This document shows positions 32,701 through 35,700 of a DNA stretch of 64,000 nucleotides, in pieces. Made by a program: the position numbers. This DNA is from Escherichia coli (GTDB lineage: Bacteria > Pseudomonadota > Gammaproteobacteria > Enterobacterales > Enterobacteriaceae): NCBI RefSeq assembly GCF_011045215.1, contig NZ_CP049201.1. One strand, written 5' to 3'. The first letter of the stretch is position 1. Every line of letters starts with the position of its first letter.

Positions 32701-35700
32701 TTTTGTACTCAACCGTTTATACAATAGCATCCATGACTAATTGAGCATAGATCTCAGTAAGCTTATTAATTATCCACTTATTGAAAGAATTCGTGGATCG
32801 CTCTTGCCGATAAAATCAGGGAATGTATTGCTCTTGGTGATAATGCCATTGGGAAAAATTACCAACCAGCCATCCCATTAAGGCTAGCCGATTAACTTTA
32901 ATTGAATCGCCACGGATTTGGCAAACAATTCACATGTCTCTACTACGCTTGATTTTTTCGTAGTATAACAGCGTAACCCTTTTCTCCCAGTTTACATACA
33001 AGAAACCTGTTCATCATTGCTGATGAAGATATATGCTGCCCTTACACGATAATTGTTTAGGATAGTAACAATGCCTTTAGATTAAAGTAACACTTTAGTG
33101 ATTGGCATCAGCGCGACTGCGCTTTTTGATATGAGTGAATCCGATCGCATGTTTTGCGAAACCTATGCGACCGATCCTGATAGCGCCATTGAAAAATACC
33201 GCGCCTATATGCTGGAGCACGAAAACCAACCTTTACAGCCTGGAACAGGCTACCCTTTAGTCAAAGCGTTGCTGGGTCTGAACCAGTACCGTCAACCGGA
33301 TGATAAATCACCGTTGGTTGAAGTCGTTGTGATGTCGCGTAACAGCCCTGATACAGGTATCCGCGTTCTGAATACTATTCGCCATGACAGGCTCGATATC
33401 ACGCGCTCTGCCTTTACAGCAGGCGAAACCGTTGCTGATTACCTTGATGCCTTTGATGTGGATCTGTTTTTAACAACTAACGTTGAAGATGCGCAAAAGG
33501 TGATTGATTCCCGATTCTGCGCCGCTGCAATCCTGAAAGATCCGCCTTCTGACGCATCTGATATCCCGGAAGGGCAAGTGCGCATTGCTTTTGACGGCGA
33601 CGCGGTACTTTTTTCCGATCAAAGCGAACTGGTTTATAAGACCCAAGGAATGGCTGCCTTTCATGCTCAGGAAGACGCACAGCAGGATATCCCTATGGAA
33701 GAGGGGCCTTATGCCACTTTGCTAAAAAAATAGCCAAGCTTCAGGAACGATTGCCGACCCGCGTTGAGTATTCTCCTGTTCGTATTGCATTGGTGACAGC
33801 CCGAAATAGCCCTTCGGAAATGCGCGTTATTAAAACGCTAAGAAGCTGGGGGGTATATGTCGATGAAGCTTTTTTTCTTGGCGGCGTAGAGAAAACAAAA
33901 GTTCTGAAGGCATTTAAACCACACATTTTCTTCGACGATCAGGATGTGCATTTAAATACTGCTGCAAAGGTTGTACCTTCCGGGAAAGTACCTTATGCCA
34001 GTAACTCCGAACTGGCAGAGCGTGAAGCATCGTAATTATCGCTGACAAACCATTTAGTCATTAAGGCTGGATGGTTTGTATACTACACGCAAAATAACGG
34101 CCCTACCCCAGATCAATGCTCGCCTCTGAACACCTCTTTCCTGTGCCATTCCACAAACTGTTCGCCCGGATAATTTTCTTTAACCGGTGGCAACGCAATC
34201 GCTTTTCCCGCAAAATCCCAGAACAGTCGCTGTACCACTCCACCACCATTTACCGCACCGGAAACCACCACACGCATATTTTCATCCAGGCCAATCGAAC
34301 CGCGATCAAACGCTTTATGATGGATTGCGCACAATGCCAGGCCATTAGGTACTTCACAAGGGCCATGGTGCTGCTTCCATCTGATATGAGCAGCTTCCAG
34401 AGCAATCAGCGCATTGTCGTGGCGCATGTTAAAGCTGCAGATAGCGCACTGATAATTGTAAGCACGTAGCACCATCTGGCGAAACTTCGGATCGCGTTGA
34501 CGAAGAGAGGTGCGAATATCAAAACTCATCTCGTCAGCTATATCTTCCTGAATACTGGCCGGGAAATGCGCCTCCAGGAGCTGCTGCGCCAGCGTATCAA
34601 TTAACCTGTAATTTTTTCCACCAACGCAAAATTATCGGCATCAAATCCACCAACGACATTATATTCAATGAGTTCACGTCGGGGCGGTTGGCGGCTACCA
34701 CTGGTTGAGCACAGTTCCGCGTTATGTAGTTCCCAGAAGCCATCGCCCTTCAGACGCCAGAACGGCATGTCCGGGCGCTGGTCACGGCGCTGCGGTCCAT
34801 AACGTTCCAGGAGATCCAACAGGGGCTCGTAGATTTCAGAAGCATAGTTAAACAGGCGACCATGACCCTGCCGATAGTGTGAGAGAACGTACAGCAGCAA
34901 TAATGGCTTATGTGGCGCACGTTGTTCGCCTTTGCGCCAGATGGTGATATTTGATATCGCTTGCTTTAGGGTTTTGTCAGAGGTCATTGCGTTGAAGAAT
35001 CCATGAGCATATGTTTGCGATGATGCTCGCAACTATATGTATATTCAAGGCATTATTGCAGACATCCTTTTTGCCTGACGGCTCTGTACCTGGCAGATAG
35101 AATTCTGAAAAAATACAGCGACTAACCAGTCCTAAGCGGTCTGGTTGGTCTTTTAAATTTAAACATCAGCCAAGGAGTAACGGCATTCAACTCACTCGCC
35201 ATTACCCCGATTGATCTTCGCATAGTCAAACGGCGTAATCGCTCTTTCCCGATTGGCATCCAGAAAATCGACCCACCACTGCAACATCAGCTTACGCTCA
35301 TCCAGATATTCCGCTTTATGGATTATACGCGGCCTGCACTGAGTTACGTCCATGTGGCTCATCTGACGTTCAGCCGCTTTATCTCGTGCTGTTCTGGTCT
35401 CAATACTTCCATGCCGTTGCAATTACCTCTTAAACCATTCCTTACCATTTTCATGTCTTCGATAAGAAATCTTCATCATGCATGATCGATTTTGTCGATC
35501 GATTCGATCGAATTTTCTCTTTTTACCCTGTCTTTTGCATGGTTTTAAAATAAGCAACCTTATTTATCGTGTGGGTAAGAACCAACGGAGATGATTGAAA
35601 TGAAAAAGGTTATTGCTGTTTCAGCGCTTGCTATGGCGGGCGTATTTTCAGCCCAGGCTCTGGCTGATAGGGGTAAAACAGGCTTTTATGTGACCGGTAA

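What the first reader, a model, noticed from the sequence alone, without database searches (positions are those of the whole stretch)
33098..35032. Convergent pair: poly-A-frameshifted 5'-nucleotidase-like gene and a possibly split HNH nuclease
The nucleotidase-like ORF is interrupted exactly at an A8 homopolymer, the kind of tract that gives slipped-strand phase variation. On the opposite strand an HNH endonuclease ORF lacks a canonical start and is preceded by a 143-aa ORF whose stop falls inside the HNH frame's upstream extension, suggesting one two-domain nuclease (possibly a modification-dependent restriction enzyme) split by a frameshift near 34600.
Basis: partly seen in the sequence, partly recalled or inferred. 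Interest (0 to 1): 0.4.

Follow-up and report, generated by a model that had tools for sequence, protein, structure and literature searches.

The report
Two dead defence genes in E. coli
The two convergent genes are broken copies of two known E. coli defence-island genes, a 5'-nucleotidase and the phosphorothioate-dependent restriction enzyme EcoWI; the breaks are fixed in this lineage rather than a reversible switch, so the locus is ordinary gene decay.

Summary
Window 33071-34035 (+) is a PF06189 5'-nucleotidase gene (PADLOC candidate PDC-S08). Window 34113-34987 (-) is the ortholog of EcoWI, 96.9% identical once repaired. EcoWI is a characterised enzyme with a sulfur-binding domain and an HNH nuclease domain, and it cuts phosphorothioate-modified DNA. 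Both genes are intact single ORFs in E. coli W and E6.

In the window each has lost one base in a homopolymer: A8 to A7 in the nucleotidase, A7 to A6 (coding strand) in the nuclease.

The phase-variation idea is not supported:
- The nucleotidase also has a nonsense codon at codon 5.
- The neighbouring 421-aa gene and the upstream hsdR are also broken, and the integrase is a 186-bp remnant.
- Eight independent assemblies carry identical tract lengths.
- The repaired version of this haplotype is absent from public assemblies, while the truncated fragment is listed in 161 blocks of the collection.
- 48 of 49 complete E. coli genomes have A8.

The same slips did arise independently in other strains, so the tracts are mutational hot spots. 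The two genes are not an obligate pair. Verdict: fixed pseudogenes of known genes in a decaying island remnant. Low interest.

The parts
33071..34035 (+). 5'-nucleotidase pseudogene (PF06189; PADLOC PDC-S08). It is 965 nt here and 966 nt/321 aa when intact.
   Evidence: Aligns end to end with the intact genes WP_028132771 (A12) and WP_053264523 (E6). The repaired protein scores 399 bits on PF06189 and 444 bits on PDC-S08.
33083..33085 (+). Nonsense codon 5 (TAA; relatives have TTA, Leu). The change is T to A at 33084.
   Evidence: Also present in 5 of 5 independent assemblies of the lineage that keep the gene.
33724..33730 (+). A7 run, a 1-nt deletion from the A8 of intact alleles (codon 218, CTA AAA AAA ATA = L K K I). 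It creates the TAG at 33731-33733.
   Evidence: A8 is found in 48 of 49 complete E. coli genomes.
34036..34112 (.). 77-bp spacer between the convergent genes. It contains the inverted repeat ACAAACCAT...ATGGTTTGT.
   Evidence: Read directly from the sequence. The simple terminator scan did not call it.
34113..34987 (-). EcoWI-type phosphorothioate-dependent restriction endonuclease pseudogene (SBD + HNH). It is 875 nt here and 876 nt/291 aa when intact.
   Evidence: The repaired protein scores 439 bits on NF045808 and is 96.9% identical to EcoWI, WP_000199891. Relatives ERP001 and 2A are annotated 'frameshifted'.
34612..34617 (-). T6 on the + strand (A6 on the coding strand), a 1-nt deletion from the A7 of the A12/C5 allele at codon 124. 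The frame then ends at TAA 34601-34603.
   Evidence: T6 in 8 of 8 independent assemblies of the lineage.
34601..34987 (-). N-terminal fragment: 125 native residues of the sulfur-binding domain (through E124-K125) plus the frameshift tail I-T-G.
   Evidence: Aligns to the ScoMcrA SBD 5ZMO at E=2.8e-6. The precomputed Pfam hit is PF26340 DNA-SBD_ScoMcrA. The SBD alignment runs to about residue 150, so the fragment lacks the end of the domain.
34113..34631 (-). C-terminal frame carrying the HNH domain. It is open from 34631, and the mechanical ORF starts at internal Met153 (34529).
   Evidence: PF13391 HNH_2, E=3.8e-9; frame geometry.
35192..35377 (-). Integrase remnant (C-terminal 186 bp only), the old edge of the island. 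Coordinates are approximate.
   Evidence: Annotated 'integrase, incomplete, missing N-terminus' in A12, C5, 154, ERP001 and 2A at the homologous place. A full-length integrase plus tRNA-Leu occupies this position in E6, W, 2EC1 and G749.
31335..32553 (+). Neighbouring 421-aa hypothetical (membrane-like) gene, also a pseudogene. It has Q205* (TAG 31902-31904), T7 to T6 at 32499-32504, and a 45-bp in-frame deletion at about 31465.
   Evidence: The gene is intact in A12, C5 and 154.

Best explanation
The locus is the integrase-proximal end of an E. coli defence island that has lost its integrase and is decaying.

It once encoded two independent, known defence-island genes. One is a PF06189 5'-nucleotidase (PADLOC candidate PDC-S08). 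The other is an EcoWI-type restriction enzyme: its N-terminal sulfur-binding domain recognises phosphorothioate-modified GpsAAC/GpsTTC DNA, and its C-terminal HNH domain cuts nearby.

In this lineage both genes are fixed pseudogenes:
- The nuclease lost one A from an A7 run at codon 124. This separates a truncated sulfur-binding fragment from the HNH half.
- The nucleotidase has a nonsense codon at position 5 and lost one A from an A8 run at codon 218.

The homopolymers are simply the most mutable sites, which is why the breaks fall there. The lesions are one-way losses under relaxed selection, not a switch.

Shown here: gene identities, every lesion, fixation across independent assemblies, and decay of the neighbouring genes. 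Inferred: loss of function, and relaxed selection as the cause.
For: Identity:
- Intact homologs are annotated in E. coli A12, E6 and W.
- The repaired nuclease scores 439 bits on NF045808 and is 96.9% identical to EcoWI. It has an SBD alignment to 5ZMO and 7CC9 and an HNH_2 domain.
- EcoWI biochemistry and in vivo restriction of dnd+ plasmids are reported in PMC7461809.
- The repaired nucleotidase scores 399 bits on PF06189 and 444 bits on PDC-S08.

Lesions:
- There are exactly two internal indels against three relatives, plus L5* in the nucleotidase.

Regional decay:
- The next gene has Q205*, a T7 to T6 slip and a 45-bp deletion.
- The integrase is a remnant, and hsdR has an in-frame TAG where C5 has CAG.
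- There are six 1-nt deletions and no insertions between 32498 and 35107. The intact helicase (3.6 kb) has no gaps, and 13 kb of core genes have none in homopolymers.
- Homopolymer runs of 6 or more changed in 4 of 11 cases in the block against 0 of 24 outside it, p=0.006.
- Nonsynonymous/synonymous differences are 27/17 in the three pseudogenes against 28/49 in the helicase, p=0.013.

Real and fixed:
- Eight independent assemblies (NCBI and Logan) have T6 in 8 of 8. Where the nucleotidase is present, A7 and the TAA codon occur in 5 of 5.
- The repaired 291-aa protein of this haplotype is not on record. The truncated 128-aa fragment is listed in 161 blocks.
- Three of those assemblies have gone on to delete the HNH half and the nucleotidase.
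Against: - Loss of function is inferred, not measured.
- The nuclease has only one lesion, so a single +1 slip would restore it. Low-level ribosomal or transcriptional slippage on the A6 run cannot be excluded.
- Both slips recur on other haplotypes: A7 in strain 154, and T6 in ERP001, 2A and CUVET25-1155. That shows elevated mutability and is also what a contingency locus would show.
- Raw reads were not available, so minority tract lengths within a culture were not examined.
- Whether the loss was neutral or selected (for example by conflict with phosphorothioate modification) is unknown.
Confidence: 0.88

Rival explanations
1. Slipped-strand phase variation. The A/T runs would be contingency tracts that reversibly switch the nucleotidase, and perhaps the nuclease, on and off in the population.
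For: Both frameshifts lie exactly in homopolymers. The same 1-nt losses arose independently on other haplotypes: strain 154 for the A8 run, and ERP001/2A for the T7 run. No SNP supports shared ancestry with the window.
Against: - Tract lengths are identical in 8 of 8 (nuclease) and 5 of 5 (nucleotidase) independent assemblies of the lineage.
- The on-state protein of this haplotype is absent from the public collection, while the off-state fragment is in 161 blocks.
- The nucleotidase also carries L5*, and strain 154's copy also carries a 10-bp deletion, so regaining the A would not restore either.
- 48 of 49 complete genomes have A8 and no longer allele was seen.
- From general knowledge: runs of 6-8 A/T are short for efficient slippage in mismatch-repair-proficient E. 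coli.
- Adjacent genes are decaying by substitutions as well.
Confidence: 0.04
2. Sequencing or assembly artefact. The homopolymer under-calls would come from an error-prone platform and the genes would really be intact.
For: Within 2.6 kb there are six 1-nt deletions, five of them in A/T runs and all shortening the window. That is the signature of homopolymer under-calling.
Against: - Two assemblies from other sources match the window at 99.989-100% over 14.7-18.4 kb with no gaps. Six further assemblies have the same tract lengths.
- The same block also has nonsense substitutions (L5*, Q205*) and a 45-bp deletion, which are not homopolymer errors.
- All 24 runs of 6 or more in 16.8 kb of flanking intact genes are unchanged.
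- PGAP annotates the same frameshift in the complete genomes of ERP001 and 2A.
Confidence: 0.02
3. Split but working. The sulfur-binding fragment and the HNH fragment would be made as two proteins, or as one through programmed frameshifting on the A run, and still restrict modified DNA. In the same reading, the nucleotidase would restart at GTG 33098.
For: - The HNH frame has an internal ATG (Met153), and its open frame overlaps the upstream ORF by 31 nt.
- The nuclease has no lesion other than the frameshift.
- Deleting the N-terminus of the related SprMcrA leaves a non-specific nicking enzyme (PMC7461809).
Against: - Intact relatives are single in-frame ORFs, so no frameshift signal is conserved.
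- The N-fragment lacks roughly the last 25 residues of the aligned sulfur-binding domain.
- No Shine-Dalgarno-like sequence precedes Met153.
- The window copy has private changes near the HNH motif (G185S, P194L) and a 9:3 nonsynonymous:synonymous ratio against A12.
- Related assemblies have deleted the HNH half entirely.
- The nucleotidase would still be truncated at codon 218.
Confidence: 0.04

Closest known systems
EcoWI of E. coli W (WP_000199891; NCBIfam NF045808; characterised in PMC7461809 and used for EcoWI-seq in PMC9521924)
   Same: Orthologous gene with the same 291-aa length and the same SBD + HNH architecture, 96.9% identical after repair. It has the same conserved HKPLLLL...PFW...W sulfur-binding motif and the same neighbourhood: nucleotidase on one side, island integrase on the other.
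   Different: The window copy is frameshifted at codon 124, its integrase is a remnant, and it lies next to the tia island rather than tRNA-Leu. At the tract EcoWI has GCA AAA AAT (A6, Ala124), whereas the window's clade had GAA AAA AAT (A7, Glu124) before losing one A. There are nine amino-acid differences, including G185S and P194L in the HNH region.
ScoMcrA / SprMcrA (PDB 5ZMM/5ZMN/5ZMO and 7CC9/7CCD/7CCJ)
   Same: Homologous sulfur-binding domain (E=3e-6 to 1e-4 over residues 4-150), fused to an HNH nuclease.
   Different: Only distant sequence similarity. ScoMcrA also has an SRA domain and is 561 aa. According to PMC7461809 they differ in cofactor, and their cleavage distance is variable.
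PF06189 5'-nucleotidase family / PADLOC phage-defence candidate PDC-S08
   Same: Full-length match after repair (399 and 444 bits). Homologs in other genera also lie in defence islands, often directly after type I R-M genes. That fits how PDC families were found, by 'guilt by embedding' (bioRxiv 10.1101/2024.01.29.577857).
   Different: The window copy is dead (L5* plus a frameshift). The family's defence role is untested, and no relative with a solved structure was found by sequence.
Simple-sequence contingency loci (homopolymer phase variation, as in Haemophilus, Neisseria and Campylobacter; from general knowledge)
   Same: The frameshifts fall in coding homopolymers, and the same slip recurs in unrelated strains.
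   Different: There is no tract polymorphism within the lineage and no on-state allele of this haplotype. The runs are short (6-8), extra irreversible lesions are present, and neighbouring genes are decaying.

Membership tests
EcoWI-type phosphorothioate-dependent SBD-HNH restriction endonuclease (NF045808) | Full-length match to the family model above its curated cut-off | tested here: met
It is 96.9% identical to EcoWI.
EcoWI-type phosphorothioate-dependent SBD-HNH restriction endonuclease (NF045808) | N-terminal sulfur-binding domain with the KPzzLL...PF...L...W motif | tested here: met
   Residues 4-150 align to ScoMcrA SBD 5ZMO (E=2.8e-6) and SprMcrA 7CC9. PF26340 is recorded on the fragment. 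The motif HKPLLLLYVL...MPFWRLKGDGFWEL is visible in the sequence, and the motif definition comes from PMC7461809.
EcoWI-type phosphorothioate-dependent SBD-HNH restriction endonuclease (NF045808) | C-terminal HNH nuclease domain | tested here: met
   PF13391 HNH_2 at residues 181-235 of the repaired protein, E=1.1e-8.
EcoWI-type phosphorothioate-dependent SBD-HNH restriction endonuclease (NF045808) | Both domains encoded in one uninterrupted ORF | tested here: not met
   A 1-nt deletion at 34612-34617 shifts the frame at codon 124, with a stop at 34601-34603. The locus is therefore a pseudogene of the family, not a functional member.
EcoWI-type phosphorothioate-dependent SBD-HNH restriction endonuclease (NF045808) | Cleavage that depends on phosphorothioate modification | not testable with these tools
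   Needs enzyme assays or transformation assays with dnd+ plasmids, as done for EcoWI in PMC7461809.
PF06189 5'-nucleotidase / PADLOC PDC-S08 | Full-length match to the family models | tested here: met
The two window fragments match model positions 10-208 and 221-300.
PF06189 5'-nucleotidase / PADLOC PDC-S08 | Uninterrupted ORF | tested here: not met
   TAA at codon 5 and the A8 to A7 frameshift at codon 218.
PF06189 5'-nucleotidase / PADLOC PDC-S08 | Nucleotidase activity or anti-phage activity | not testable with these tools
   PDC families are described as untested candidates.
Homopolymer phase-variable (contingency) locus | A coding homopolymer whose length change toggles the reading frame | tested here: met
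   A7 here against A8 intact, and T6 here against T7 intact.
Homopolymer phase-variable (contingency) locus | Tract length varies among closely related isolates or within reads | tested here: not met
   Lengths are identical in 8 of 8 (nuclease) and 5 of 5 (nucleotidase) independent assemblies that are 99.2-100% identical to the window. Raw reads were not available.
Homopolymer phase-variable (contingency) locus | On and off alleles both exist on the same haplotype | tested here: not met
   The exact repaired nuclease is not on record, while the truncated fragment is in 161 blocks.
Homopolymer phase-variable (contingency) locus | No other inactivating lesion, so that a slip restores function | tested here: not met
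   The nucleotidase also has L5*. The nuclease alone does meet this feature.

The most novel reading that the evidence does not exclude
The EcoWI-type nuclease has been knocked out repeatedly and independently wherever this island remnant sits next to tia. The knock-outs are R254* in A12/C5/154, the T7 to T6 slip at least twice (the window lineage and ERP001/2A), and outright deletion in some assemblies. It is intact in all four sampled genomes where the island still has its integrase at tRNA-Leu. This could reflect selection against a phosphorothioate-dependent nuclease, for example because these lineages acquired or frequently receive dnd-modified DNA, with the Glu124 (GAA) allele's A7 run acting as the preferred breaking point. 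The alternative is plain neutral decay.
Probability: 0.12. Interest if true: 0.35.

Novelty: already known. Interest (0 to 1): 0.12.

Why it matters
It matters little beyond correct annotation.
- The four ORFs should be annotated as two pseudogenes. NCBI's pipeline already does this for the same lesions in related complete genomes.
- Strains of this lineage should not be expected to restrict phosphorothioate-modified DNA.
- The case shows that a frameshift sitting exactly in a homopolymer is not in itself evidence of phase variation. Second lesions, decay of neighbouring genes and tract stability across isolates settle the question.
- A side observation may deserve separate work: the PF06189 nucleotidase is regularly placed straight after type I R-M operons in several genera, and it is an untested defence candidate.

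Tried and rejected
- **Sequencing artefact:** rejected. Independent assemblies are identical, the same block carries non-homopolymer lesions, and homopolymers in the flanking genes are clean.
- **Phase variation:** rejected on tract stability, the absent on-state allele and second lesions.
- **The convergent pair as a two-gene system:** rejected.
  - The nuclease occurs in 192 E. coli records and the nucleotidase in only 49.
  - Strains 2EC1 and G749 have the nuclease without the nucleotidase.
  - In seven other genera the nucleotidase is never adjacent to an SBD-HNH gene.
- **Shared ancestry of the short alleles:** rejected on SNP patterns. No site groups the window with strain 154 or with ERP001/2A apart from the indel itself.
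- **Promoter/terminator scan of 32800-35400:** nothing above the shuffled expectation.
- **Solved-structure search for the nucleotidase:** no hit.
- **PDC-S08 in the literature:** one incidental mention only. The PDC source preprint does not discuss it by name.
- **dnd status of the host:** I could not test whether the source strain carries dnd phosphorothioation genes. No dnd query sequence was available, and only 64 kb of the genome is accessible.
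Full report
**What is in the sequence**

The window is E. coli, and the region lies in a composite genomic island between type VI secretion genes and tRNA-Phe/speC. Megablast of 32900-35200 finds 255 E. coli records. The homologous genes are annotated as '5'-nucleotidase', 'phosphorothioated DNA-binding restriction endonuclease' and 'integrase'.

In strain E6 and in E. coli W both genes are intact, at 966 bp/321 aa and 876 bp/291 aa. They are convergent and sit next to a full-length integrase at tRNA-Leu.

Aligning the window with A12, C5 and E6 shows exactly two internal indels:
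- The window has A7 at 33724-33730 where the others have A8.
- The window has T6 at 34612-34617 where A12 and C5 have T7. E6 and W have TTTTTTG, which is the same length as T7.

**True gene bounds and further lesions**

- The nucleotidase gene starts at ATG 33071. Its codon 5 is TAA in the window and TTA in every relative. The GTG at 33098 is therefore only a mechanical ORF start.
- The nuclease gene starts at ATG 34987. Apart from the frameshift at codon 124 it has no stop codon.

**What the genes are**

The repaired nuclease:
- matches NCBIfam NF045808 end to end, 439 bits against a cut-off of 180;
- has an HNH_2 domain at residues 181-235;
- aligns over residues 4-150 to the crystallised sulfur-binding domains of ScoMcrA (5ZMO) and SprMcrA (7CC9);
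- is 96.9% identical to the protein of E. coli W.

That protein is EcoWI. According to PMC7461809, EcoWI is a dimeric, Mg2+-dependent enzyme. It recognises GpsAAC/GpsTTC, cuts at N7/N6, and strongly restricts dnd+ plasmids in vivo.

The repaired nucleotidase matches PF06189 (399 bits) and the PADLOC model PDC-S08 (444 bits). PDC families are untested defence candidates, found because they are embedded in or flank BREX, DISARM and type I R-M systems.

**Artefact, switch or decay?**

*The block is decaying as a whole.*
- From 32498 to 35107 the window has six 1-nt deletions and no insertions relative to A12, five of them in A/T runs.
- The intact helicase gene just upstream (3.6 kb at the same divergence) has no gaps. 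The 13 kb of core genes have no single-base or homopolymer indels, only a compensating 2-nt pair near 54717.
- Runs of 6 or more changed in 4 of 11 cases inside the block and 0 of 24 outside it, p=0.006.
- The lesions are not only slips. The adjacent 421-aa gene has Q205*, a T7 to T6 slip and a 45-bp in-frame deletion. The nucleotidase has L5*. The integrase is a 186-bp remnant. hsdR upstream has an in-frame TAG where C5 has CAG.
- Nonsynonymous/synonymous differences are 27/17 in the three pseudogenes against 28/49 in the helicase, p=0.013. This is consistent with relaxed constraint.

*The lesions are real and fixed.*
- An NCBI draft (GCA_036881245.1) and a Logan assembly (SRR11014969) are 99.989% and 100% identical to the window over 18.4 and 14.7 kb. 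Neither has a gap, and both carry all the same lesions.
- Six more assemblies found through the truncated fragment have T6 in every case. Where the nucleotidase is still present they also have A7 and the TAA codon. Three of them have gone on to delete the HNH half and the nucleotidase.
- The exact repaired 291-aa protein of this haplotype is not on record, whereas the 128-aa frameshift product is listed in 161 blocks of the collection.
- Among complete E. coli genomes, the nucleotidase tract region matches over 92 bases (A8) in 48 of 49 and over 91 bases (A7) only in strain 154.
- The nuclease tract region is one base short in 3 of about 185 genomes. Two of those were inspected and are annotated 'frameshifted'.

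*The tracts are hot spots.*
- Strain 154 is nearly identical to A12. It shares A12's R254* in the nuclease and has its own 10-bp deletion in the nucleotidase. Its A7 therefore arose separately from the window's.
- ERP001 and 2A carry T6 on a haplotype that shares no derived SNP with the window.
- This supports slipped-strand mispairing as the mutational mechanism. It does not support a reversible switch.

**Is the convergent pair a unit?**

No.
- The nuclease is present in 192 E. coli records and the nucleotidase in 49.
- In 2EC1 and G749 the nuclease sits beside the tRNA-Leu integrase with a type I R-M system and no nucleotidase.
- Nucleotidase homologs at 72-83% identity occur in Shewanella, Azotobacter, Desulfomicrobium, Photobacterium, Marinomonas, Pseudoalteromonas and Desulfuromonas, and none is next to an SBD-HNH gene.
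- Those homologs typically follow hsdS or a type III res gene. Their downstream neighbours are GmrSD, an ABC-type ATPase, dynamin-like GTPases or YjiT.

**Context pattern**

In the ten genomes inspected, the nuclease is intact where the island keeps its integrase at tRNA-Leu (E6, W, 2EC1, G749). It is broken wherever the integrase is a remnant fused to the tia region: R254* in A12, C5 and 154, and a frameshift in ERP001, 2A and the window lineage. This fits decay of an immobilised island remnant. Selection against the nuclease cannot be excluded, but could not be tested because dnd status is unknown.

**Verdict**

The nuclease interpretation is right and the phase-variation interpretation is not supported. 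Both genes belong to known families, and the same kinds of lesion are already flagged as pseudogenes by NCBI annotation in related genomes. Novelty: already known. Interest: low.

Noticed in passing
L017 6001-6975, L019 6001-6963, L021 6001-6972, L023 6001-6990 (homologs of window 33071-34035): The PF06189 5'-nucleotidase (PADLOC candidate PDC-S08) lies 28-380 bp after hsdS of a type I R-M operon in Azotobacter, Photobacterium and Marinomonas, and after a type III-like res gene in Desulfomicrobium. A GmrSD-type (type IV) enzyme follows it directly in two of these. The family is an untested defence candidate, and no relative with a solved structure was found by sequence.
   Followed up: partly
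window 21656-25072: The type I restriction subunit gene hsdR upstream in the same island carries an in-frame TAG at 23615-23617 (CAG in strain C5), splitting it into 653-aa and 450-aa ORFs. hsdM (25136-26770) and hsdS (26767-27894) appear as uninterrupted ORFs.
   Followed up: partly
window 27901-31182: An intact 1093-aa DEAD/DEAH helicase lies directly after hsdS. It shows no gaps and 49 synonymous against 28 nonsynonymous differences relative to A12. Its only PADLOC hits are weak (PbeA, 1.7e-8, helicase core only), and its large C-terminal part has no assigned domain.
   Followed up: no
window 31335-32553: A 421-aa hypothetical, membrane-like gene between the helicase and the nucleotidase is intact in A12, C5 and 154. 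In the window it is broken three ways: Q205*, a T7 to T6 slip, and a 45-bp in-frame deletion at a direct repeat.
   Followed up: partly
window 35591-36346 and 36657 onward: The tia outer-membrane invasin gene and a dynamin-like GTPase cluster (leoA/leoB-type) follow the integrase remnant. Shewanella homologs of the nucleotidase are also next to dynamin-like GTPase clusters (L013-L016).
   Followed up: no
L005 (strain 154), homolog of window 33607-33616: Strain 154's nucleotidase has its own 10-bp deletion (ACTTTTTTCC) as well as an independently arisen A7. This is a second, separate pseudogenisation of the same gene.
   Followed up: yes
window 35033 / L003 (strain C5): Strain C5 has an extra copy of the hexamer TATATG just upstream of the nuclease gene. 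C5 also places this whole island on a 214-kb record labelled 'plasmid A', although its content looks chromosomal.
   Followed up: no
L028, L029, L032: In some assemblies that carry the same frameshifted sulfur-binding fragment, the sequence matching window positions below about 34242 (the 3' end of the nuclease gene and the whole nucleotidase) is missing. A 675-aa hsdR-like gene abuts the remnant there, which is a later stage of the same decay.
   Followed up: partly
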